Of a DNA stretch of 64,000 nt, positions 1-10,191 are shown piece by piece. The notes under the pieces are model-generated. The model had not been told where the DNA came from, searched no databases, and worked only from the letters and a program-made list of their open reading frames with translations. The DNA is taken from positions 178,866 through 242,865 of the forward strand of contig JBJHCT010000001.1 of NCBI GenBank assembly GCA_050486185.1, in the 5' to 3' direction. Source of the DNA: Candidatus Saccharimonadota bacterium. Lineage in GTDB: Bacteria > Patescibacteriota > Saccharimonadia > QS-5-54-17. The translations under genes were made by a program, and so were the position numbers. Each line of letters begins with the position of its first letter. The first letter of the stretch is position 1.

Positions 1-119
1 CCATTAGCGTAAGGCCAGGCTACGAAAACTGCAATTTTTCCCATTTCGTGAATAATTTTATCACGTTCTGGCTGTTCTTCAGAGGATTTCTCTGTAATTA
101 ACTCATGATTCATGTACAT
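1..119 (-). CDS. Class I aminoacyl-tRNA synthetase, N-terminal fragment (MetRS-like); gene continues beyond window start
   Basis: Reverse-strand translation from 119 gives MYMNHELITEKSSEEQPERDKIIHEMGKIAVFVAWPYANG. This carries the P-Y-A-N-G element that precedes HIGH in class I aaRS. Partial, so it is absent from the ORF track. Confidence 0.4.
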   Translation of the reverse strand, partial: MYMNHELITEKSSEEQPERDKIIHEMGKIAVFVAWPYAN

Positions 120-153
120 ATTATAAACTAAACTTTATAAATAAGCAAATGTA

Positions 154-1134
154 TTAAGATATAATTTCAAATATTTTTTTATCAAATTGCTCAGGCCAAA
201 GCCTAAGTCTTATATAGTTTGCATCTTCTTGTCCAAACTCATCTCCTGAGCGAACAATTATACCTTGTCTTTTTAGTTCGTTTGCAATATTTATTTTATG
301 AGTTTGAATAAATATAAAATTAGCCTCTGTTTTAAAAAACTTTATGTTATTAGATCTTAAAAGCTTATATATCCTCTTCTTGTTCTGCTCATTTTTATTA
401 ATAGTATCTTGTATATACGTGTCTGTTTTTTTAAGAAGATACTCAAAACTATTATATTGTAAATCGCTAATGGAATAAGGGGTTAGTAGTTTTGCTAATA
501 CATTTATATTTTTTGAATTTGAAATGATATAGCCTAACCTTAAGCCAGGAAGCGCATATATTTTTGATAAGGAGCTTACCACATGTACATTTTCATATGT
601 TTCTATACTTTTTATCAATGAATTAATAGCGTAATTAGCAGAGAATCTTAGGTAGGTTTCATCTATTATAAAGTCGTGAATCCTAAAATGTTTTGCTAAA
701 CTAAGTATGTCTTCAGCGCTTATCAGTTTACCCGTGGGATTGTTGGGGTTGCATAATATTACAACAGCTGGCTTATCAATACTTTTACACCTCTTTTTTA
801 ATTTACTTACTACATTTTCTTGAATAGCGTTAACTCTAAATATTTTTGAGTCGTTTTTATTGTAAAATTCATATTCCCAGAATGTTGGGCTTAAAACTAC
901 TCTTGGACGATTTGAGAAATGATCAAGCAATATTCTAATAGCTTCAGTACTACCATTGGTTACCGATATCTGACCTTTTCCTAATGACATTATTTTTTCG
1001 ATAACTGAGTAGTCGTATTTACTATATTGATCACCCGCGTATTTGCCTAGAAAGCTCTCAAGATTTTTTTGTACAAAGTTTAAGTAGTTGATTGGAGGAC
1101 CTAAAGAGTTAAAGTTTTGAGATAAGTCTATCAT
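154..1134 (-). CDS. PLP-dependent aminotransferase, class I/II (HisC/CobD-like)
   Basis: The ILCNPNNPTG motif and the SLSKIYALPGLRLGY motif (PLP-binding Lys in the S-x-S-K context) are typical of histidinol-phosphate aminotransferase / threonine-phosphate decarboxylase family. Confidence 0.7.
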   Translation of the reverse strand: MIDLSQNFNSLGPPINYLNFVQKNLESFLGKYAGDQYSKYDYSVIEKIMSLGKGQISVTNGSTEAIRILLDHFSNRPRVVLSPTFWEYEFYNKNDSKIFRVNAIQENVVSKLKKRCKSIDKPAVVILCNPNNPTGKLISAEDILSLAKHFRIHDFIIDETYLRFSANYAINSLIKSIETYENVHVVSSLSKIYALPGLRLGYIISNSKNINVLAKLLTPYSISDLQYNSFEYLLKKTDTYIQDTINKNEQNKKRIYKLLRSNNIKFFKTEANFIFIQTHKINIANELKRQGIIVRSGDEFGQEDANYIRLRLWPEQFDKKIFEIIS

Positions 1135-1683
1135 TTAGATGTCTGAATAAATGTTACGTATATATTCAAGAAGCTGGACTAGGTTTTTTTCATTCGTATT
1201 AGGATTGCCTGGCATAAATCGTAAAGGGTAGATTAATGCACCCTCTTCAAATACTCCTTTGTCAGGAATGCTGAATTGGTGTACATGGTATTTACCTTCA
1301 TCAATTATTCTTTTGTGTATAGCCTGATTTATTTGATTAATTTCATTGATTGAAATTCCTTTTATTTCTGGTTTATACATAAACGCTACAGCGTTTATGT
1401 CTACATCGTTTACAGAAACAAAGTCAGTAGACTTATCAACCATATTTTTAAGTTTTAATGCCAGATTATGTCTATCCTCGATAATTAGACCATAACCTTC
1501 TCTTCCAATATTCTTTATCGCAAACCATAGTTTAAGGGACAGCCAAGACTTACTGCCTATGTTTGGTGTAATTTGACCGAAGGCGTACTGTTCTTTCATT
1601 ATTAGGTCAGAAATACTGGAAATACTTTTCATTTTACCTGGATCTTTAACAAGTAGTGCGCTGAGAGTGTAGGGTATATTCAT
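1135..1683 (-). pseudogene. C-terminal fragment of a group II PLP-dependent decarboxylase (MfnA/GadB-like); N-terminal half missing
   Basis: It starts about 10 aa before a DPGKMK (DPHK-like PLP-Lys) motif. It then matches the decarboxylase C-terminal pattern ...SKSWLSLKLWFAIKNIGREGYGLI...DINAVAFMY. It is only 182 aa, and the upstream space is occupied by an unrelated gene in another frame. Confidence 0.5.
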
Positions 1684-1730
1684 AACTTTATGTGGGTCAG
1701 TTGTAACACTGTCAAAAAGCTCAATTCCTT

Positions 1731-2783
1731 TTATTTTATGTTTGAGTTCTCTTTGTGTAGATACTCAGCGTGACGAAGATCTGCATCAGGACTGTCCAGT
1801 ATGTGTAGTGAGTACTGAAATGGAAGATTTTGGTACGGGCTTAATCCATCAAAATATGGTACTAAAGAAGAAAGCGTTTCATAATCAAAAAAATACAGTG
1901 GATATTCAAACCCTGAGAGAAACTCCGAAATACTATCCCGCTTTATAATCGGTCTGCCCGACCGGCTCGTTTCAAGATATAGGGCCTGTTTGGTCTTTAG
2001 TTTAAAGTCATCGGGTATATCGGAGATTAGATTAATACCAGCATCCTCAAGGTCGGCTAATTGTTTGGAGGTGAGTTGGTATAGGTTATAGATACTATCT
2101 GGCTCAACCTTCATGAGGTGTTTGTAAATATCTAGCCATTCCCGAAAAGCGTCCTTACTAGCTAGCGTAGGTGAAAGATCAGGCTTAACACCAGAGTTAA
2201 GCATATCTATCGCAGCTTGAGACTGCTCGGCAACAAGCTCCCTATTATCCTTAACTTTTTCGGTGATATCGGTTATCTCTGTTAAACCTTTTGCATCTAT
2301 GTCGCCATGGCGTACATACTGGCTGTTTACATGTACGACTGCAATATTTCGCACTTCAAATCCACACCCCTCTAAAACTATTGTTTGAAATGCTAAATCA
2401 ATCTCATGGTCAGGCTTGGCGCTACTACTAGACTTGATCTCATATAGGTCAACAGTTTTGTCATCTACAAGCTCGATAATGTCACAGATGAAGGTGCGGT
2501 CCTCATACTCAAAGCGTCCCTGGAATATAGTGGTTGCACCATCCTCTAAAGCTTTTAGCGTACGTTCAGGTAGCGTTTTATACTCTTCATAATTATCAAA
2601 TCCTAATCTTACTCCACCTGGGAATAGTGATTCTGCATAGGGTTCAAAAGCATTGCCTGTGTCGAATATAGCCTGTAGCTTGTCGCTGACTGGCGGTAGC
2701 TTAGAAGGGTCATGTTTTTTTAACCACAGCCAAGCTGGGTGTTTTAAGTACGTCATGTAGTCTGATTTAGAGAGTTGCATCAT
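1731..2783 (-). CDS. Cas4/RecB-like PD-(D/E)xK nuclease with a DUF2779-like C-terminal segment
   Basis: N-terminus MMQLSKSDYMTYLKHPAWLWL. D..E.K motif in CDIIELVDD...DLYEIKS. C-terminal FFDYETLSSLVPYFDGLSPYQNLPFQYSLHIL resembles the DUF2779 signature. Confidence 0.5.
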   Translation of the reverse strand: MMQLSKSDYMTYLKHPAWLWLKKHDPSKLPPVSDKLQAIFDTGNAFEPYAESLFPGGVRLGFDNYEEYKTLPERTLKALEDGATTIFQGRFEYEDRTFICDIIELVDDKTVDLYEIKSSSSAKPDHEIDLAFQTIVLEGCGFEVRNIAVVHVNSQYVRHGDIDAKGLTEITDITEKVKDNRELVAEQSQAAIDMLNSGVKPDLSPTLASKDAFREWLDIYKHLMKVEPDSIYNLYQLTSKQLADLEDAGINLISDIPDDFKLKTKQALYLETSRSGRPIIKRDSISEFLSGFEYPLYFFDYETLSSLVPYFDGLSPYQNLPFQYSLHILDSPDADLRHAEYLHKENSNIK

Positions 2784-3888
2784 TCAATTCATCGAGTAAA
2801 CTTCTGTAAATTGCAATAAACTCGTCAATTTCGGAAGATTTTGACATTTGATTTGGTGATATGTACAGCCTGCTGGATTTTATATTTTGATCACTTTTAC
2901 CAAACAATCCCTTTGAAATAACCTGACTGTATAAGTCGCGCAAGACATTAACCATCGGCGATTTTTTTTCATAGAAAAAGTACGAGAGCATTCCGTTTGA
3001 TTCAAACTCGTAGTTATATTTTTCATCAAGAAAGAATGATTTAGCAAAATCTTCATCGCCCCGCTTTGATTTATAGTACTCAATGCGTCCACCGGTTTTT
3101 GTAGAGAGTATCTTATTCAATTCGTGAATTTGTACTGCTTGTTTGACAGTTAGGGCACTCTTATCATACTGGCCAAGCTTCAATATGTTTAGAAATGTTT
3201 CTTCATCACATGGTTCAGAGTCAACATTAGTCCCGGTCTTTTTAGAAGTTGATACTTCCTTCTTAACTTCAGCACCATAGATTTTAGGAATAATTATTTC
3301 AAATGATTTATGCTTATAGTACTCAAGCTCCACAGCATACAAATCAAATCTGCTGTTTTGGTTTACAAAAATCACTAGATCCTTAAGTGCATCATGTAAT
3401 TTGTCCATAAGTACAACGAACTTAATGCTTCCGTCATGAAGGTTAGATCTAATTGTTGCAATGTTATCTGTTGCATCGTCTAGTTCAAAGAAATCGGCAT
3501 AGGCCTGACGAAAAGAGTTGGTAAACTCCTTTTGACAGTGCTCGTCGATTCTTGACTCAAAATCTTCAAAGTTAACAGCATGACGCCATAGAGATGCTCC
3601 ATAGTCTAGAGCCTGTGCTACGACCGTTCGTTTGTCTGGATTTTTATAAAGCTTGGTCTCAACAACATAGATATTGCCGTTTGCGTCAAATCCCAAAGCG
3701 TCTATAGGGCCACTCTTAGTGTTAAACTCTCGTGCCGCAATGAATAAGCGTGTATCTTCGTCTATATCGTAGAGTGGTATTGCATCAGGGTTATCATAAA
3801 TATATTGTTGCAGCTTGTCTTCAAGCCCAAACTGAGACTCATCAATACGTTTTGCGTCTTTCCCGTTTTCAGAAATAATTATTGCCAT
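2767..3888 (-). CDS. PD-(D/E)xK nuclease-fold protein (NucS/DUF91-like N-terminal domain), function unknown
   Basis: GPIDALGFDANGNIYVVETKL fits the restriction-endonuclease-like D-x(n)-E-x-K core. A long C-terminal region has no recognisable motif. It overlaps the downstream nuclease gene by 17 nt, which is operon-like. Confidence 0.45.
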   Translation of the reverse strand: MAIIISENGKDAKRIDESQFGLEDKLQQYIYDNPDAIPLYDIDEDTRLFIAAREFNTKSGPIDALGFDANGNIYVVETKLYKNPDKRTVVAQALDYGASLWRHAVNFEDFESRIDEHCQKEFTNSFRQAYADFFELDDATDNIATIRSNLHDGSIKFVVLMDKLHDALKDLVIFVNQNSRFDLYAVELEYYKHKSFEIIIPKIYGAEVKKEVSTSKKTGTNVDSEPCDEETFLNILKLGQYDKSALTVKQAVQIHELNKILSTKTGGRIEYYKSKRGDEDFAKSFFLDEKYNYEFESNGMLSYFFYEKKSPMVNVLRDLYSQVISKGLFGKSDQNIKSSRLYISPNQMSKSSEIDEFIAIYRSLLDELNDATL

Positions 3889-3998
3889 GTTTTGAGTTTA
3901 ACACTTTTTACATACTAAAGTTACTTTCACAAGCCCTATTATTAAGACCCGTACATCATAGGGTGAGTAATTCATGGACTTGCCCTTGGTGTCTGTAT

Positions 3999-4072
3999 TG
4001 GCTGGGGTGCTAGGATTCGAACCTAGGATCACGGTACCAAAAACCGTTGCCTTACCACTTGGCTACACCCCA
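3999..4072 (-). tRNA. tRNA-Gln (anticodon UUG)
   Basis: Reverse complement folds as a cloverleaf: UGGGGUG acceptor with U1-A72 and G73, anticodon loop UUUUGGU, T-arm GGUUCGAAUCC, 3' CCA. Confidence 0.75.
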
Positions 4073-4188
4073 TCAGTGTAGTTTAGATTATCCTTGATTA
4101 AACACAGCTATTGTAGCAAATCATAGGTATTAGCGCTACGAAAAGGGGTATTGCTTCTAACTCCTATCTATTAGATACTATATCTAAT

Positions 4189-5256
4189 ATGAAAAAGTTA
4201 GGTGATCTAATGCAGCTTAAAGTAGATGTAAGTAATAAAACTATTTTCAGAGTCTTTGCTGTAGCACTAGTATTTTTACTAGCCATACAATTTGTGATGG
4301 TAGCTCGCACTGCTCTAGTACTGATTTTCGTCTCTTTCTTCTTAGCCATAGCATTTAACCCGGTAGTTAGCTATCTGTCACAGTGGATGCCAAGAAAAAG
4401 TCGAGGGCTAGCAACTGCCTCTACCTATGTAGTGGTTATAGTAGTTTTTGGTGTATTGATCTCCTCCCTGCTACCTCCTATCGCTAGACAGACCGGTCAG
4501 TTAATTGATAGCTTGCCAGGATACATACAGCAGCTTCAGGAATCTGATGGAGTTCTGAGCTCTATAGTAGGATATTATGATACCGAGGATGCTGGTACTA
4601 ACTTGCAAGAAGAGCTAACGCAGAGGTTCTCTGGTGCTAGTGAGCCGGTATTAGCTTTCATGGGCCGCATATTTTCAAATGTAGTCTCTACTCTAACTGT
4701 ACTTGTTGTAACCTTCTTCATGTTGGTAGAAGGGCCGCGTTGGGTTAATAAGTTCTGGGATCTACATCCCAAACATCACCGCAAGCACCGTCAGAGTTTG
4801 GCCGATAAGATGTATAGGATTATTACAGCCTACGTCAACGGCCAGCTACTAATAGCCGCTATCAACGGTCTAGTTACTTTCATAGTCTTAAGTATTGTCG
4901 GCATCCCATACGCCCTATCACTAGCCGCTATATCGGCTCTACTTGGTCTAATTCCGGTCATAGGTACTACTTTAGGTGCAGTTATCATCATAACTGTCGG
5001 ACTATTCGAGTCAACAACTGCAGCTATCATCCTAACTATCTACTTCATAGTCTATCAACAGATTGAAAACAACGTTATTCAACCAGCTATACAGTCTAGA
5101 TCACTAGGCATGTCTCCACTTCTAATTTTGATCTCAGTGATTATCGGTTTCTCGCTAGCCGGTATCTTGGGCGGTCTATTAGCTATACCGATTATGGGTT
5201 GCTTGCGAGTTTTGGTACTTGACTACATTAAGCAACATCACCTTGCTAATGCCTAA
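4189..5256 (+). CDS. AI-2E family transporter (PerM/YhhT-like)
   Basis: Multi-TM protein with the family signature IVYQQIENNVIQPAIQSR. Confidence 0.8.
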   Translation: MKKLGDLMQLKVDVSNKTIFRVFAVALVFLLAIQFVMVARTALVLIFVSFFLAIAFNPVVSYLSQWMPRKSRGLATASTYVVVIVVFGVLISSLLPPIARQTGQLIDSLPGYIQQLQESDGVLSSIVGYYDTEDAGTNLQEELTQRFSGASEPVLAFMGRIFSNVVSTLTVLVVTFFMLVEGPRWVNKFWDLHPKHHRKHRQSLADKMYRIITAYVNGQLLIAAINGLVTFIVLSIVGIPYALSLAAISALLGLIPVIGTTLGAVIIITVGLFESTTAAIILTIYFIVYQQIENNVIQPAIQSRSLGMSPLLILISVIIGFSLAGILGGLLAIPIMGCLRVLVLDYIKQHHLANA

Positions 5257-5287
5257 AAAGAACTCTAAAAAGGAGTTTTAAAGTAAC

Positions 5288-6343
5288 ATGCAGGCAACTA
5301 TCGACATTTCTACCAAGGCAATCGTTAGAAGACTACTATTTGTAGTAGCTTTATTGGCTATAGCTACACTAGCTTACAACCTCCAGGGCGTTATTAGGAT
5401 GTTTATCATCGCCTTTTTCATAGCTTTAGTGATGCATGGACCAACCACTAAGCTGCAACAGTACGTTATAGCTCAAAACCGTAAACTAGCTGCCATAGTG
5501 GCCTTTATGTCGATTGGCTTTGTAGTCTCTGTCGTTATAGCCCTAGTAATACCAGTGATATCAAATCAAGCTAGAGAACTAGCCTTGCAAGCTCCGGGAT
5601 ATTTCCATGATCTGTCTAGTGGGGATGGATTTATATCTACTTGGATGCAGAATCTAGATATAGTTGGTAGTTTCCAGGACTTTCTAGCGAGTATTGCTAG
5701 TGGTTTAACTCTATCAGTTGATTTAATTATCGACGTTGCAGCTAGGGTTTTAGATAACATCATAACCTTCCTATTTACTATAGTTTTAGCCTTTCTGATG
5801 GTAGTTGAAGGGCCAAATTGGGCTAAACAGTCGAAGAAGTTCATACCAAAGTCCGCATCCCCTGCTTTAACTGAGTTGATGCCAAAGATGTACAAGGCAG
5901 TTACTGGTTTTGTGGCAGGACAGATTATTGTCACCTCTATAGCGGCTACAGCTACATTGATACTGTTATTTATATTCGGTGTTCCCGCTCCATTGTCTCT
6001 AGCGGCTGTCATATGGGTGACGGGCCTAATCCCACTCATCGGTAATACTCTAGGCGCAGTTATAGTTGTCGCAGTAGCGCTATCACAATCAGTCTTTGTA
6101 GCTATCTTCCTAGGAGTCTACTACATCATCTATCAGCAAATTGAAAACAATGTTTTTGAGCCGATTGTGCAGTCTAGAACAGTCAGTCTAACTCCACTAT
6201 ATGTCATTATCTCAGCCGTTATAGGTGTTTTTGCCGCCGGCTTTATAGGAGCGTTGATCGCTATACCGGTTGGAGCTTGTGTGAAGATTGTAGCTGAACA
6301 CTTCCTAAATGAGAGTTTAGACCCGGATAAATCTAGTACTTAA
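5288..6343 (+). CDS. AI-2E family transporter (paralog)
   Basis: Same architecture as the adjacent transporter, and the same YQQIENNVFEPIVQSR signature. Confidence 0.8.
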   Translation: MQATIDISTKAIVRRLLFVVALLAIATLAYNLQGVIRMFIIAFFIALVMHGPTTKLQQYVIAQNRKLAAIVAFMSIGFVVSVVIALVIPVISNQARELALQAPGYFHDLSSGDGFISTWMQNLDIVGSFQDFLASIASGLTLSVDLIIDVAARVLDNIITFLFTIVLAFLMVVEGPNWAKQSKKFIPKSASPALTELMPKMYKAVTGFVAGQIIVTSIAATATLILLFIFGVPAPLSLAAVIWVTGLIPLIGNTLGAVIVVAVALSQSVFVAIFLGVYYIIYQQIENNVFEPIVQSRTVSLTPLYVIISAVIGVFAAGFIGALIAIPVGACVKIVAEHFLNESLDPDKSST

Positions 6344-7148
6344 TACAGTAAAGTAAAGCGATGTTACGAGGGCGAGCTTCTGTCCCACCGCTATCTGCAG
6401 TATTGCCGGATATGCTATGAGTATGAGACCCATTACTGGTTGTAGACATAGTGCCATTACGGAAATACATTGTTGCATCATCATGTATCCCACCCTGACT
6501 AAAGCGAGGATTACTGCCGTCTTTTACTCTAAGTCCAGCCGTTTCACCAACAGTAGGTACAGTTATAGTTGGGCTAGATCCATTGTTTGCAATCATACGG
6601 ACTTGATTTAGGTAGTTCTGGGTATGTGTATGTGCTCCATCTGAGGCTGCTGTCAGTGATCCTGAATCATGTTGATGCTCTTTATTTTGATCTGCCTGAG
6701 CTGAACCTAAGTCTCTTCCGGTATCTACCCCTCTACCATCATCCCAAGCCCTAAGAAATTCACCCCTTAAGTCAGGTAGGTTAAAAGTAGTCGACCCATC
6801 ACCTACGCCATATTCAGTACCTATAATTGCAAATAAGTCTGCATACTGAGTGCGAGATACTGCCTGACCGTTACATTTCAGCCAGCCGTCAGGTTCTGCG
6901 TTCATAATAAAGCTCATAATAGCTCCTGGAGGAACCGAGGGTGCGCTGCTGCCAGTCACCCAAGTTGAGGTAGCCTCCTCATAGACCAACGTATCTCCAT
7001 CACTAGGACTATTAGCTGCAAGATTACTAATTTGCTCTAAGTTAATATTTCTCAAGCTACCATCTTGATTGTGGGCCACTTCAAGGAACTCATTTAGTAT
7101 GTCTCCCCAGGTACCAATATCTTCGCCTGGTATAGGCAGACGCGCCAT
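6333..7148 (-). CDS. Phage tail-collar domain (tail fibre-like) protein
   Basis: The MARLPIPGEDIGTWGDILNEFL N-terminus and GWLKCNGQAVSRTQYADLFAIIGTEYGVGDGSTTFNLPDLRGEF match the phage tail collar / T4 gp12-like motif (Y.ALF..IG..YG.GDG.TTFnLPDLRG). Confidence 0.8.
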   Translation of the reverse strand: MARLPIPGEDIGTWGDILNEFLEVAHNQDGSLRNINLEQISNLAANSPSDGDTLVYEEATSTWVTGSSAPSVPPGAIMSFIMNAEPDGWLKCNGQAVSRTQYADLFAIIGTEYGVGDGSTTFNLPDLRGEFLRAWDDGRGVDTGRDLGSAQADQNKEHQHDSGSLTAASDGAHTHTQNYLNQVRMIANNGSSPTITVPTVGETAGLRVKDGSNPRFSQGGIHDDATMYFRNGTMSTTSNGSHTHSISGNTADSGGTEARPRNIALLYCIKY

Positions 7149-7220
7149 AAACTATCTCCTTAATTAAAAACTATTTTTATATATATATTTTAGCATGAGC
7201 TTAAATATATGAGTAATAAG

Positions 7221-8591
7221 CTACACCCTACTCCATATCTGTCCAGCCGGCGTATCACGCACCTCCAAGCCTTTATCTAGTAGCCTGTCTCTGAGTTCAT
7301 CTGCTAGCTTCCAGTCACTAGCCTCTCTAGCCTGAGAGCGCTTCTCAAGCAGCTCCTTATCACTCTTCTTGATATCGGTAGTTTTAAGCAGGTCTAGTCC
7401 TAACACCTGATCTACTAGTCCTAAATACTCTTCAAACTCCTCTCTTTGGTTCTCACCTACCAAGTAATCAGAGATCATACGAAAACTATCACCTAGCGCG
7501 CTCAAGGCTTTAGGTGTGTTGATATCCTCAGCCATAGCTTTTAGGAAATTATCAGTATGCTTAGTGAAATCTATATTCGAATTATCACTTATGGGCTGCC
7601 AGCGTAAATCTGCTACTGCATGTAAGCTCTTTAGTCTAGTAGCGGCAGTATCTAGTAAATCCCAAGAAAAATCTATACTAGATCGATAGTGGGACTGCAA
7701 TATCAGTAGCCTTAGAGCCATAGGATCATATCCTTTATCTACAACCTCTTTGATAGTATAAAAGTTGCCTTTTGATTTAGCCATTTTAGAGCCTTTAATG
7801 TTTAGGAATCCGCTATGTAGCCAGTACTTAACGAAAGGAGTTTTTCCTGATATGGACTCCATCTGAGTGATCTCTGCTTCGTGGTGTGGGAAGATTAGAT
7901 CTACTGCTCCACCATGGATATCGTACTGGTCGCCAAAGATTTCTTGGGTGATGGCGGTATCTTCTATATGCCAACCCGGCCTACCACTACCAAAAGGAGC
8001 ATGCCACTCCGGTTCATTTGGTTTAGAAAACTTCCATAAACAAAAGTCATTCCAACCCCTCTTTTTATCACTCTCATCTATGCGGCTTTGAGCGTCATCC
8101 TCAGCTATCTCTGCTCGTCCAGATAACTTGCCATAATCAGGAAACTTAGCAATCTCAAAATAGATACCGTCGCCTTTGATGGTGTAGGCAAAACCTTTAT
8201 CTAGTAATACCTCTACTTGTTTGATGATGTTGTCGATATGATCAGTTGCTCTAGCATATTTATCTACAGAAACGTTGTTGAGTAACTTCATATCTTCTAT
8301 GTATAGCTTTTCGTACTTTTTGGCTAGTTCTTGTGGGTCTTTACCCTCAACTTCTGCTCTATCGATAATCTTGTCATCAATATCAGTGATGTTTTGTAAA
8401 TAAAACACCTTATACCCTAAAGCCTTTAGAGTTCTAGCTACTACATCCATAGCTACGTAAGTCTTGGCGTGTCCTATATGGGTATGATCATAAACGGTTG
8501 GACCACAGACAAAGAAGTTGACCCTTGTCTCATCCAGGGGCTTAAAATCTTCTAATTTACCACCTAAAGTATTATGCAGTTTTAGCTGCAT
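7221..8591 (-). CDS. cysS: Cysteine--tRNA ligase
   Basis: CGPTVYDHTHIGHA (HIGH) and KMAKSKGN (KMSKS) motifs; 456 aa. Confidence 0.9.
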   Translation of the reverse strand: MQLKLHNTLGGKLEDFKPLDETRVNFFVCGPTVYDHTHIGHAKTYVAMDVVARTLKALGYKVFYLQNITDIDDKIIDRAEVEGKDPQELAKKYEKLYIEDMKLLNNVSVDKYARATDHIDNIIKQVEVLLDKGFAYTIKGDGIYFEIAKFPDYGKLSGRAEIAEDDAQSRIDESDKKRGWNDFCLWKFSKPNEPEWHAPFGSGRPGWHIEDTAITQEIFGDQYDIHGGAVDLIFPHHEAEITQMESISGKTPFVKYWLHSGFLNIKGSKMAKSKGNFYTIKEVVDKGYDPMALRLLILQSHYRSSIDFSWDLLDTAATRLKSLHAVADLRWQPISDNSNIDFTKHTDNFLKAMAEDINTPKALSALGDSFRMISDYLVGENQREEFEEYLGLVDQVLGLDLLKTTDIKKSDKELLEKRSQAREASDWKLADELRDRLLDKGLEVRDTPAGQIWSRV

Positions 8592-9607
8592 TATTTATTC
8601 TCCTCATTACTGTAATACTCATCCATATACTTATCGGCCATTTTAACTAGCTTATTTCTGGCTTGCTTGAGAGATCTAGCCTCTATCCTACAACCAGCGG
8701 CTAGGTCATGTCCACCACCACCGAATTCCTCAGCGATTTTGCGCGCTACGGGTATATGAGCCCTCATAGTTATGGTAAAGAGATTGTGACCCACGTCAGT
8801 GACACCGATACTTAATTTAACGTCCTTAACGGTCAATAGCTCATATTTAATATATTCAGATATTGAGCCTCTAGTTTTCAGCCATTTGCGCAAACGCTTG
8901 CTAGTGCTAAAGATAGCGACTCTACCATCTAAATAGTATTTGGTTTTAGCAGCTAGTTTGCTTTTAGCTCGGTAGGTATCCTTGTCGATAGCAAAAGCCT
9001 GGTCATACTCGTAGTTAATATCGGCTATGTTGATACCATAATCAAGCAGCTCGCCAACTGTCCTGAGATGTTCTGAGCTGATCTTATCGATCATTAATTT
9101 ACGGGTATCATACATATATGCTAGTAATATGAGACGAGCAAACTCTTTATCTATGGGCCAATTTAGCTCTTTAGCGATTCTATAAACTATCTCAGCTGCA
9201 GCCGGAGCATTGCTATCTACAATTTTCAGATCGGCAAAATCAAAAGAGCCGGGTATTTCTGGATGGTGATCAATGATTATGAAGTTCTTTTTCTTAAGCC
9301 CTGGGCCTTGGTCTTTGAGAGCTTGAGAGATTAATTTCTCCTCATTAGTATCAGTTACTATTACAGTGTCGTATTCTTCGGGGAATTCATCGACAAAATA
9401 CTCACCAAATAGCTCCTCGTTAGCTCCTCTGAGCTGTTTGAGGCAGACCAAGGTATTAGCTACGTTGATAGAGTCAAGCCCCAACTTTATAGCTACTGAT
9501 GAGGCTAGACTATCAAGATCGGGATTATCTGGCTGAAGTAATACTACGTGATGAGAATCTAGTAACATATTATCTAGCTGTTTGATGAGCTGTTTGTTGA
9601 TACTCAT
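8591..9607 (-). CDS. nrnA: DHH/DHHA1 phosphoesterase (NrnA-like nanoRNase / pAp phosphatase)
   Basis: IIIDHHPE (DHH) and FGGGGHDLAAG (DHHA1 GGGH) motifs. Confidence 0.75.
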   Translation of the reverse strand: MSINKQLIKQLDNMLLDSHHVVLLQPDNPDLDSLASSVAIKLGLDSINVANTLVCLKQLRGANEELFGEYFVDEFPEEYDTVIVTDTNEEKLISQALKDQGPGLKKKNFIIIDHHPEIPGSFDFADLKIVDSNAPAAAEIVYRIAKELNWPIDKEFARLILLAYMYDTRKLMIDKISSEHLRTVGELLDYGINIADINYEYDQAFAIDKDTYRAKSKLAAKTKYYLDGRVAIFSTSKRLRKWLKTRGSISEYIKYELLTVKDVKLSIGVTDVGHNLFTITMRAHIPVARKIAEEFGGGGHDLAAGCRIEARSLKQARNKLVKMADKYMDEYYSNEENK

Positions 9608-10191
9608 ACTGCTTGCCTACCTTCTAGCGCTCTACTGAGGGTGATTTGATCGGCATATTCAAGGTCACTGCCCATCGGTAGACCCCTAGCCAGTCTAGTA
9701 ATCTTAACTTCTGGCAACATCTGGCGGATATAGTGGGCGGTTGCTTCTCCTTCTACACTAGGATTGGTAGCTAGAATCAACTCCTCTATATCACCTTCCT
9801 CTACTCTACTCTTCAAACTCTCTAAATTTAGATGTTCTGGACCGATGCCATCTACCGGTGAAATAATGCCGCCTATGACGTGGTAAACCCCCTCAAAGCT
9901 ACCGGCTCGCTCTATGGCTATGACGTCTAGGGCGTCTTCTACGATAGCGATGATGCCTTGATCTCTTTTGGGGTTCTCACAGATATTACAGGTATCCTCA
10001 CTAGTTAGGTTGTAGCAACTCTGACACTCTTGAATGTTGATGTGAAGATCACTTAGAACTTCTGATAGTCTCTTAGCTTCGCCTGCACCTTTTTTGAGTA
10101 TCGACATAGCTAACCTCTCGGCCGTCCTAGGGCCTACACCTGGTAGTTTATTTAACTCTACAACTAGATCTTCAAGGGCTTTAGGTAGCAT
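9604..10191 (-). CDS. recR: Recombination protein RecR
   Basis: HhH LPGVGPRTAERLA, C4 zinc finger CQSCYNLTSEDTCNIC, Toprim region. Lies in the dnaX-ybaB-recR context. Confidence 0.9.
   Translation of the reverse strand: MLPKALEDLVVELNKLPGVGPRTAERLAMSILKKGAGEAKRLSEVLSDLHINIQECQSCYNLTSEDTCNICENPKRDQGIIAIVEDALDVIAIERAGSFEGVYHVIGGIISPVDGIGPEHLNLESLKSRVEEGDIEELILATNPSVEGEATAHYIRQMLPEVKITRLARGLPMGSDLEYADQITLSRALEGRQAV

What the first reader, a model, noticed from the sequence alone, without database searches (positions are those of the whole stretch)
1135..3998. Two-gene PD-(D/E)xK nuclease islet next to tRNA-Gln that appears to have truncated a PLP-decarboxylase gene
Immediately downstream of the tRNA-Gln 3' end lie two overlapping minus-strand genes.

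The first is 373 aa, with a NucS/DUF91-like GPIDALGFDANGNIYVVETKL nuclease core plus a long unknown C-terminal region.

The second is 350 aa. Its N-terminus is Cas4/RecB-like (LSKSDYMTYLKHPAWLWL, then D..E.K). Its C-terminal part resembles DUF2779 (FFDYETLSS...PYQNLPFQYSLH) but stops early.

The next ORF (1135-1683) is only the C-terminal ~45% of a group II PLP-decarboxylase. It begins about 10 residues before the DPGKMK PLP-Lys motif. The place where its N-terminal half should be is occupied by the nuclease gene in another frame.

The location at a tRNA 3' end fits integration of a small defence-type islet. A two-nuclease operon like this is a candidate uncharacterised defence system.
Basis: partly seen in the sequence, partly recalled or inferred. 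Interest (0 to 1): 0.6.

Follow-up and report, generated by a model that had tools for sequence, protein, structure and literature searches.

The report
Decayed tRNA-linked nuclease gene pair
Next to a tRNA-Gln gene in a Saccharibacteria genome sit one intact candidate anti-phage nuclease gene and a partner nuclease gene cut short by the same DNA break that beheaded a neighbouring decarboxylase gene, so this is a half-decayed copy of a recurrent but untested gene pair.

Summary
The ORFs and domain calls are real. Two points in the reading are wrong.

1. The true PLP-lysine motif (SVTTDPHK, Lys codon 1687-1689) lies in the supposed spacer, upstream of the only start codon. DPGKMK is not that motif.
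2. The DUF2779 gene is truncated too: 350 aa against about 491 in relatives. It ends at 1740. Decarboxylase homology begins at 1746-1755 in another frame.

So one illegitimate-recombination joint (about 1740-1755) cut both genes. An intact islet did not simply insert into a decarboxylase. The decarboxylase/aminotransferase side is the compositionally foreign one (GC 0.31 against 0.42).

The intact 373-aa gene belongs to a large family centred on Patescibacteria. Its NucS/RecB-type nuclease domain is strongly conserved (D63, E77xK79, Q92xxxY96). Its C-terminal domain is hypervariable and has no structural match. Every family member tested hits the untested PADLOC candidate PDC-S11, over the N-terminal half only.

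All seven closest relatives examined sit next to a full-length DUF2779 gene, in two gene orders and several neighbourhoods, once directly after a type III R-M operon. Family members are about 6-fold enriched just downstream of tRNA genes, tRNA-Gln most often.

Verdict: a degenerate copy of a plausible, untested two-nuclease defence module. Interest is modest.

The parts
3999..4072 (-). tRNA-Gln (anticodon UUG). Its 3' end faces the nuclease genes.
   Evidence: ARAGORN. The same tRNA lies directly upstream of 373-like genes in several independent Saccharibacteria loci.
3889..3998 (-). 110-nt spacer between the tRNA-Gln 3' end and the start of the 373-aa gene.
   Evidence: Sequence. No att-like repeat of the tRNA 3' end occurs anywhere in the window.
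3253..3888 (-). 373-aa gene, residues 1-212: conserved NucS/RecB-type PD-(D/E)xK nuclease domain (D63, E77-x-K79, Q92-x3-Y96).
   Evidence: Invariant columns in the 66-sequence alignment A2. Motif residues checked. NucS_C is hit, below threshold, in 65 of 66 members. PDC-S11 is hit in 66 of 66. Foldseek matches NucS/EndoMS. Identity reaches 83% in relatives whose C-terminal halves are unalignable.
2767..3252 (-). 373-aa gene, residues 213-373 plus stop: linker and hypervariable C-terminal alpha/beta domain of unknown fold family.
   Evidence: The AF2 model of residues 215-373 has pLDDT 92.5. It has no significant PDB or BFVD match. Only 3 of 1.84 billion representative proteins are detectably similar. 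Close relatives of the N-terminal domain carry unalignable C-terminal halves.
1731..2783 (-). 3'-truncated DUF2779 gene (350 aa against ~491). The solo-Cas4-like PD-(D/E)xK domain is intact (D101, E115-x-K117). Of the DEDD exonuclease domain only the first motif survives (FFDYET, residues 298-303, nt 1875-1892).
   Evidence: Pfam DUF2779 profile positions 1-49 of 126, and Cas_Cas4. Homologue lengths. C-terminal alignment. tblastn homology ends at 1740. Family architecture from PMC13621843 and PMC3985635.
1740..1755 (-). Recombination or deletion joint. DUF2779 homology ends here (...EYLHKENSN) and decarboxylase homology begins in a different frame (ELKHKIKGIE...). The two tracts abut or overlap by about 7-16 nt with no filler.
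   Evidence: tblastn end points are 1740 against 1746 or 1755. Alignments. Codon coordinates. An independent Logan contig is identical across the joint.
1135..1755 (-). 5'-truncated group II PLP-decarboxylase remnant. The ORF is 1135-1683 (182 aa). An in-frame untranslatable remnant at 1684-~1749 holds the PLP-Lys codon at 1687-1689.
   Evidence: Pfam Pyridoxal_deC positions 271-375 of 375. Frame translation. Alignment to relatives. The N-terminal part is absent from the window.
154..1134 (-). Apparently intact HisC/CobD-like class I/II aminotransferase, abutting the decarboxylase stop codon. It belongs to the low-GC (0.31) segment.
   Evidence: Pfam Aminotran_1_2 E=1e-28 and NCBIfam hisC/CobD-like below cut-off. 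GC values.

Best explanation
This is a half-decayed accessory locus on the 3' side of tRNA-Gln in a Saccharibacteria (Patescibacteria) genome.

Shown:
- A single illegitimate-recombination joint at about 1740-1755 fuses a DUF2779 gene lacking its last ~145 codons to a group II PLP-decarboxylase gene lacking everything upstream of a point about 20 codons before its PLP lysine.
- The truncated DUF2779 protein keeps its Cas4-like nuclease domain. It has lost two of the four DEDD catalytic acids of its 3'-5' exonuclease domain, plus the conserved Tyr.
- The decarboxylase remnant cannot include its PLP lysine.
- The 373-aa gene is intact. It encodes a NucS/RecB-type PD-(D/E)xK endonuclease domain with a complete catalytic motif set, fused to a fast-evolving C-terminal domain.
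- Its closest relatives always sit beside a full-length DUF2779 gene.

Inferred:
- In intact form the pair works as an anti-phage module.
- The variable C-terminal domain of the 373-aa protein selects or senses foreign DNA and licenses cleavage by the conserved nuclease domain. This parallels Shedu and restriction enzymes, which couple a conserved nuclease to swappable sensor or recognition domains.
- The DUF2779 protein (5'-3' Cas4-like plus 3'-5' DEDD exonuclease) then degrades the ends.
- In this genome only the first step can still be fully functional.
- The low-GC decarboxylase/aminotransferase segment is the more recently acquired DNA. The joint arose either when it arrived or by a later deletion.
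For: Joint:
- DUF2779 homology ends at 1740 and decarboxylase homology starts at 1746-1755 in another frame, with no filler. The missing halves are not in the window.
- All 119 listed DUF2779 homologues other than the window's own are 418-522 aa.
- The joint is reproduced in a Logan assembly.

Composition:
- GC is 0.313 for 1-1740. The mean for 1.7-kb windows is 0.423 with sd 0.030. The islet is 0.391.

373-aa nuclease:
- Invariant residues D63, E77, K79, Q92 and Y96.
- NucS hits by sequence and by fold.
- PDC-S11 is hit by 66 of 66 family members, best E=6e-21.
- The N-terminal domain is up to 83% identical where the C-terminal halves are unalignable.
- The C-terminal domain is nearly unique.

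Pairing:
- Adjacent to full-length DUF2779 in L002, L005, L006, L093, L094 and L177, in two gene orders and with different flanks. The start/stop overlap seen in the window also occurs in L005.
- L177 places the pair directly after a type III R-M operon.
- DUF2779 elsewhere follows SIR2-HerA, or type III R-M plus an AAA_13 ATPase.

Neighbours and position:
- 150 non-redundant neighbours of 373-like genes include 7 large serine recombinases, about 10 R-M methylase or type IIG genes, 3 terminases and 4 DUF2779 genes.
- tRNA enrichment: 9 of 84 clusters against 27 of 1398 other ORFs (odds ratio 6.1, p=1e-4).
Against: - No experiment supports defence for PDC-S11, for DUF2779 or for this family. 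PDC systems are explicitly untested candidates.
- In 80 GTDB representative loci only one has an adjacent DUF2779 gene, so the pairing is confined to a subclade.
- Several tRNA-Gln-linked copies are flanked by ordinary housekeeping genes, not defence genes.
- The N-terminal domain is unusually conserved for a defence gene.
- No homologue occurs in 50,697 phage records.
- DUF2779 is quasi-essential in JCVI-syn3.0, which hints at a housekeeping DNA-processing role.
- The microhomology at the joint is inferred from protein alignments only. The parental sequences are unknown.
- DNA to the left of window position 1 is not available, so a distant island boundary cannot be excluded.
Confidence: 0.7

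Rival explanations
1. An intact, functional two-nuclease defence islet integrated at the tRNA-Gln 3' end and, by inserting, cut off the N-terminal half of a resident decarboxylase gene.
For: The locus lies at a tRNA 3' flank. The family is enriched at tRNA flanks. The decarboxylase is truly truncated. There is a defence-candidate HMM hit.
Against: DUF2779 is itself truncated at the same joint. There is no integrase and no att repeat. The decarboxylase side is the compositionally atypical DNA. tRNA-Gln followed by a 373-like gene is an arrangement shared with distant lineages, so the nuclease is more likely the older resident.
Confidence: 0.07
2. The joint is an assembly chimera between two Saccharibacteria populations. 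It would join a ~0.41-GC contig end inside DUF2779 to a ~0.31-GC contig end inside a decarboxylase gene.
For: GC steps sharply at the joint. The source is a metagenome-assembled contig. The low-GC piece lies at the window edge.
Against: A second assembler (Logan contig L001, 3780 nt) gives a 100% identical sequence across the joint. The tracts share at most ~16 nt, far below assembler k-mer sizes, so a graph mis-join is unlikely. The stop and start codons are tightly packed and the frames are intact on both sides.
Confidence: 0.06
3. The nuclease genes are DNA-repair or recombination housekeeping genes of reduced-genome bacteria, not defence genes. On this view the 373-aa protein is a NucS-like structure- or mismatch-specific endonuclease, and DUF2779 is an end-processing exonuclease. 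The tRNA linkage would be passive synteny.
For: The N-terminal domain is 57-83% identical across Patescibacteria lineages. Flanks are housekeeping genes in L017, L096 and L044. DUF2779 is quasi-essential in JCVI-syn3.0. The only structural relatives are NucS/EndoMS repair nucleases. There are no phage-borne copies.
Against: The C-terminal domain is hypervariable and swapped. Neighbours are enriched in R-M genes, recombinases and prophage genes. The pair is appended to R-M operons. All members hit PDC-S11 models. There is no NucS N-terminal domain. This genome tolerates loss of the DUF2779 C-terminus. The distribution is patchy and pairing is variable.
Confidence: 0.17

Closest known systems
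PADLOC phage defence candidate PDC-S11 (single-gene, untested; guilt-by-embedding set, bioRxiv 10.1101/2024.01.29.577857)
   Same: Similar total length (358-379-position profiles against 373 aa). The N-terminal ~200 residues are homologous (E=3e-16 for the window protein; 66 of 66 relatives hit, best 6e-21). Relatives occur beside R-M systems.
   Different: Only profile positions 11-203 of 358 are matched, and the C-terminal half is unrelated. The closest relatives are paired with DUF2779, whereas PDC-S11 is defined as a single gene. The host range is Patescibacteria.
NucS/EndoMS mismatch endonuclease (PDB 2vld, 5gke; Pfam PF01939)
   Same: RecB-like PD-(D/E)xK core with D, ExK and QxxxY motifs. 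It is the only significant sequence and fold match.
   Different: Scores fall below Pfam's gathering threshold (16.2 against 24 bits). The nuclease domain is N-terminal here. There is no NucS N-terminal DNA-binding domain. The appended C-terminal domain is unrelated and hypervariable.
Shedu (SduA, Pfam PF14082; PDB 8ps5)
   Same: The logic of a conserved NucS-like PD-(D/E)xK nuclease domain fused to highly variable accessory or sensor domains. One relative hits SduA_C at E=2e-5. There is a weak Foldseek hit to 8ps5.
   Different: The window protein does not hit SduA_C. The domain order is reversed, with the variable domain C-terminal. The fold match is not significant (E=0.13).
DUF2779 / UU173 family (PF11074; e.g. 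MMSYN1_0389 of JCVI-syn3.0), a solo-Cas4-like nuclease plus DEDDy exonuclease
   Same: The Pfam hit is above threshold. The Cas4-like D-ExK motif and the first DEDD motif (FFDYET) are present. Identity to 491-aa Saccharibacteria members is 58-65%.
   Different: Truncated at residue ~348. It lacks the second and third exonuclease motifs (WNMSFE, Y-x3-D). It lacks the Cas4 four-cysteine cluster, as the family does in general.
Group II PLP-dependent decarboxylases (PF00282; JGI names relatives L-2,4-diaminobutyrate decarboxylase)
   Same: The C-terminal ~205 residues align without gaps at 55-65% identity to relatives. The S-x-x-x-D-P-H-K motif is recognisable.
   Different: The N-terminal part is missing (everything upstream of about residue 280 of relative P0263). 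The lysine lies upstream of the only start codon, so this is a pseudogene remnant.

Membership tests
PADLOC PDC-S11 | Match to the PDC-S11 profile HMMs over most of the profile | tested here: inconclusive
   E=3.2e-16, but only profile positions 11-203 of 358 are covered. All 66 relatives match in the same partial way.
PADLOC PDC-S11 | Single-gene cassette found embedded in or next to R-M, BREX or DISARM systems | tested here: inconclusive
   The window copy is not next to any R-M system. Relative L177 directly follows a type III R-M operon, and L002 lies near a type ISP enzyme. The closest relatives are two-gene, with DUF2779.
PADLOC PDC-S11 | Demonstrated anti-phage activity | not testable with these tools
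   PDC systems are described as untested candidates.
NucS/EndoMS | Pfam NucS_C at or above the gathering score | tested here: not met
   16.2 bits against a cut-off of 24. 65 of 66 relatives hit only below threshold.
NucS/EndoMS | N-terminal NucS DNA-binding domain preceding a C-terminal nuclease domain | tested here: not met
   The nuclease core lies at residues ~50-100 of 373. No NucS N-domain hit was found. The C-terminal domain has no PDB match.
NucS/EndoMS | RecB-type catalytic motifs D, ExK and QxxxY | tested here: met
   D63, E77, K79, Q92 and Y96 are invariant in 66 sequences.
Shedu (SduA) | Pfam SduA_C (PF14082) domain at the C-terminus | tested here: not met
   The window protein has no hit. 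One of 66 relatives hits at 2.3e-5. Foldseek to 8ps5 gives E=0.13. The nuclease domain is N-terminal.
DUF2779 (PF11074) | Pfam DUF2779 hit above the gathering score | tested here: met
   53.4 bits against a cut-off of 23.3.
DUF2779 (PF11074) | Complete DEDD(y) exonuclease domain with all four acidic residues | tested here: not met
   Only profile positions 1-49 of 126 are present. The alignment shows loss of everything after ...EYLHKENSN, including the WNMSFE and Y-x3-D motifs.
DUF2779 (PF11074) | N-terminal Cas4-like D...ExK nuclease motif | tested here: met
   D101, E115 and K117 are present. Cas_Cas4 covers residues 100-179. The family description is in PMC13621843.
CRISPR-associated Cas4 | Cas_Cas4 above the gathering score, and cas1/cas2 or a CRISPR array nearby | tested here: not met
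   20.9 bits against 22.7. The neighbouring genes up to ~10 kb (154-10191) are an aminotransferase, AI-2E transporters, a Collar-domain protein, CysRS, a DHH protein and RecR.
Group II PLP decarboxylase | Full-length fold with the PLP lysine inside the ORF | tested here: not met
   Only profile positions 271-375 of 375 are present. The Lys codon 1687-1689 is upstream of the ATG at 1683, and no start codon exists between the upstream stop and that ATG.
tRNA-targeted integrative (genomic) island | Integrase gene and a direct repeat of the tRNA 3' end marking the far boundary | tested here: not met
   No recombinase lies within 1-8600. The only other match to the tRNA 3' end is an unrelated tRNA-Trp. 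No repeat was found in 1-6000. DNA left of position 1 is not available.
tRNA-targeted integrative (genomic) island | Location immediately 3' of a tRNA gene, recurring across genomes | tested here: met
   The gap is 110 nt here. tRNA-Gln lies 79-534 nt upstream in several independent loci. 9 of 84 clusters against 1.9% of other ORFs have this arrangement.

The most novel reading that the evidence does not exclude
The 373-aa nuclease plus full-length DUF2779 form a genuine, previously undescribed two-gene anti-phage system of Patescibacteria. A strongly conserved NucS-type endonuclease would be steered by a hypervariable C-terminal sensor domain. A dual (Cas4-like plus DEDD) exonuclease would finish off the cleaved DNA. 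The tRNA-Gln 3' flank would serve as a recombination hot spot where C-terminal sensor modules are exchanged, using the tRNA and the conserved N-terminal domain as homology anchors.
Probability: 0.2. Interest if true: 0.55.

Novelty: new variant of a known kind. Interest (0 to 1): 0.33.

Why it matters
Patescibacteria (CPR) have tiny genomes and an episymbiotic lifestyle, and their immune repertoire is poorly charted.

Three leads come out of this work:
- A widespread nuclease family centred on CPR, with a near-invariant catalytic domain and an exchangeable C-terminal domain, sitting repeatedly at tRNA flanks.
- Its recurrent coupling to DUF2779.
- DUF2779's attachment to SIR2-HerA and type III R-M operons.

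Together these give a concrete, testable lead on the function of DUF2779. That family is large and uncharacterised, and it is quasi-essential in the minimal cell JCVI-syn3.0.

The copy in this window matters mainly as a caution. It is a decayed example and would be a poor choice for experiments. It also shows how one deletion joint can look like an 'insertion that truncated a gene'.

Tried and rejected
- **Exact-sequence contig look-ups.** The look-ups for the 350-aa ORF and the aminotransferase found nothing. I could not recover DNA left of window position 1, nor the 264-kb NCBI contig.
- **C-terminal domain.** It gave no significant PDB or BFVD match. A single-sequence search of 1.84 billion representatives found only 3 hits. 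Its function remains unassigned.
- **A conserved third gene beside the pair.** None was found.
- **att-like repeats, an integrase, or promoter/terminator signals above background.** None were found.
- **Phage-borne homologues.** None were found. Plasmid hits are only distant (31% identity) Rhodococcus hypothetical proteins next to IS630 and RES-Xre.
- **Pairing across the wider family.** I considered whether the 373/DUF2779 pairing is a general property of the whole family. It is not: 1 of 80 GTDB representative loci shows it.
- **Unreadable preprint.** A 2026 bioRxiv preprint mentioning PDC-S11 (H-NS silencing) could not be opened, so nothing is taken from it.
Full report
**What is in the sequence**

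All features lie on the minus strand:
- tRNA-Gln(UUG), 3999-4072
- a 110-nt spacer
- a 373-aa ORF, 2767-3888
- a 350-aa ORF, 1731-2783, whose ATG overlaps the previous gene by 17 nt
- a 182-aa ORF, 1135-1683
- a 326-aa aminotransferase gene, 154-1134, starting directly after the previous stop codon

Beyond the tRNA lie ordinary chromosomal genes: two AI-2E transporters, a Collar-domain protein, CysRS, a DHH phosphoesterase and RecR. Homologues and record titles place the organism in Saccharibacteria/Patescibacteria.

**Domain calls**

The 373-aa protein:
- It matches NucS only weakly by sequence: Pfam NucS_C E=0.01, below the cut-off, and NCBIfam NucS 3e-6.
- Its AF2 model has pLDDT 83.7. Foldseek's best hits are NucS/EndoMS 2vld and 5gke at probability 1.0, with a non-significant hit to Shedu SduA 8ps5.
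- In a 66-sequence alignment D63, E77, K79, Q92 and Y96 are invariant. That is a complete RecB/NucS-type motif set.
- It hits PADLOC's PDC-S11 models at E=3e-16, and all 66 relatives do too (best 6e-21). The match always covers only the N-terminal ~200 residues.
- PDC systems are 145 untested 'guilt-by-embedding' candidates.

The 350-aa protein:
- It is Cas4-like (D101, E115-x-K117).
- It carries only positions 1-49 of the 126-position DUF2779 profile.
- The literature describes DUF2779 as a solo-Cas4-like nuclease fused to a DEDD(y) RNase-H-fold 3'-5' exonuclease. The family is uncharacterised and quasi-essential in JCVI-syn3.0 (PMC13621843, PMC3985635).

**The joint**

- The 119 listed DUF2779 homologues other than the window's own are 418-522 aa, most of them about 491. 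The window ORF aligns to them up to ...EYLHKENSN (residue 348, nt 1740) and then stops.
- What is lost includes the WNMSFE and Y-x3-D exonuclease motifs. Only the first motif, FFDYET, remains.
- In another frame, the decarboxylase reading frame is open for 27 codons upstream of the ATG at 1683. It reads ELKHKIKGIELFDSVTTDPHKVM.
- That sequence aligns residue for residue with relatives, including the S-x-x-x-D-P-H-K pyridoxal-lysine motif (Lys codon 1687-1689).
- tblastn places the start of decarboxylase homology at 1746-1755.
- The two homology tracts therefore abut or overlap by about 7-16 nt, with no filler DNA.
- No start codon exists between the upstream stop and the ATG, so the lysine cannot be part of any product.
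- Neither missing half is found elsewhere in the 64-kb window.
- A Logan contig assembled independently is 100% identical over window 255-4034. That makes an assembly chimera unlikely.

**Which side is foreign**

- Segment 1-1740 has GC 0.313, the lowest 1.7-kb stretch in the window (mean 0.423, sd 0.030).
- The nuclease segment has GC 0.391.
- No integrase and no repeat of the tRNA 3' end is present.
- Decarboxylase relatives in other Saccharimonadales have no nuclease genes nearby.
- Nuclease-pair loci have no decarboxylase.
- The adjacency seen here is therefore a secondary junction, unique to this genome among the loci examined.
- One illegitimate-recombination event cut both genes. It was either a deletion or the edge of an incoming low-GC segment.

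**The 373-aa family**

- There are more than 1,800 hits in the metagenome protein collection and 195 in GTDB species representatives. Nearly all are Patescibacteria, with a few others.
- Residues 1-212 are up to 83% identical in proteins whose C-terminal ~160 residues cannot be aligned.
- The window's C-terminal domain folds confidently (pLDDT 92.5). It has no PDB or viral-structure match, and only 3 detectable relatives among 1.84 billion representative proteins.
- A near-invariant nuclease domain with an exchangeable partner domain is the design of Shedu and of many restriction enzymes.

**Pairing with DUF2779**

- Every relative examined that has at least 52% full-length identity lies beside a full-length DUF2779 gene. 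These are L002, L005, L006, L093, L094 and L177.
- Both gene orders occur, and the flanks differ. In L005 the genes overlap as they do in the window.
- In L177 the pair directly follows a type III R-M operon.
- In L025 the order is tRNA-Gln, then DUF2779, then a convergent 373-like gene.
- Pairing is absent from the 45-47% clade and from 79 of 80 GTDB representative loci.
- Elsewhere DUF2779 is the last gene after SIR2-HerA (L173), or after type III R-M plus an AAA_13 ATPase (L174).
- No conserved third gene exists.

**Position**

- 373-like genes lie 79-534 nt downstream of tRNA-Gln, on the same strand, in several independent lineages. The other flanks in those lineages differ: GlgB/TrxB, SecE-NusG, and TrmA/pilin.
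- Other copies follow tRNA-Asn, tRNA-His, tRNA-Ser or tRNA-Trp.
- After clustering, 9 of 84 clusters have a same-strand tRNA within 600 nt upstream. The figure for other ORFs in the same loci is 27 of 1398 (odds ratio 6.1, p=1e-4).
- The immediate neighbours (150 non-redundant proteins) include 7 large serine recombinases, about 10 R-M methylase or type IIG genes, 3 terminases and 4 DUF2779 genes. Most have no annotation, and some are plainly housekeeping.

**Interpretation**

- Shown: the ORFs, the domains, the double truncation at one joint, the family architecture, the subclade-specific pairing and the tRNA association.
- Inferred: that the intact pair is an anti-phage module. In that model a sensor-steered endonuclease cleaves DNA and a dual exonuclease processes the ends. 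This genome would retain only the first component in working order.
- The main functional rival is a housekeeping repair role. It is supported by the strong conservation, the housekeeping flanks and the quasi-essentiality of DUF2779 in a minimal cell. It is weakened by the hypervariable domain, the patchy distribution and the R-M or mobile-element neighbours.

**Verdict**

The finding is real but degenerate. It is a new variant built from known, uncharacterised kinds (PDC-S11-like nuclease, DUF2779). Interest is modest. Intact copies in L005, L093 or L177 would be the ones to test.

Noticed in passing
L009:10001-10561; L011:9531-10960; L012:1285-2764; window 1135-1755: This rare decarboxylase family has only 24 hits in 5.8 billion clusters. 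It is broken in all four Saccharimonadales loci examined. Two are 5'-truncated at different points close to the PLP lysine (the window copy, and L009 after an ATP-sulfurylase gene). Two are frameshifted in the N-terminal half (L011, L012). All keep an open C-terminal ~185-codon frame that is tightly coupled to the downstream gene (LigT or aminotransferase).
   Followed up: partly
L012:1682-5810: The fullest version of the cluster reads decarboxylase, methyltransferase, 2'-5' RNA ligase (LigT), aminotransferase, NUDIX. It lies next to a Replic_Relax gene, which suggests a mobile metabolic cassette of unknown product.
   Followed up: no
L173:2971-7488; L174:1-7476: Full-length DUF2779 genes sit as the last same-strand gene directly after a SIR2-HerA pair (L173), and after a type III R-M operon plus an AAA_13 ATPase (L174). 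This suggests DUF2779 is an add-on nuclease shared by several defence modules.
   Followed up: partly
window 6333-7148 (-): A 271-aa protein with a Phage Tail Collar domain (E=1e-26) lies among core genes. Its 3' end overlaps the end of the second AI-2E transporter gene by 11 nt on the opposite strand. No other phage genes are nearby.
   Followed up: no
window 4189-5256 and 5288-6343 (+): Two tandem, diverged AI-2E family transporter paralogues sit immediately upstream of tRNA-Gln. In L044 and L049 a permease-cysS block lies 5-9 kb on the other side of the tRNA-Gln/nuclease unit and in the opposite orientation, implying an inversion between lineages.
   Followed up: partly
L174:7516-7917; L105:587-973; L152:1203-1373: The small 133-aa gene that follows DUF2779 in L174 has 54-58% identical relatives right next to 373-like genes in L105 and L152. 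It could be a further loosely associated component.
   Followed up: no
L176 (NZ_CP040720.1 78276-79319): Distant relatives of the nuclease domain (31% identity, N-terminal domain only) occur as 347-aa hypothetical proteins on Rhodococcus megaplasmids, beside an IS630 transposase and a RES-Xre toxin-antitoxin pair.
   Followed up: partly
window 2801-3400: The part of the 373-aa gene that encodes the variable C-terminal domain has lower GC (0.34-0.35) than the part encoding the conserved nuclease domain (~0.41). This fits the C-terminal module having been exchanged by recombination.
   Followed up: no
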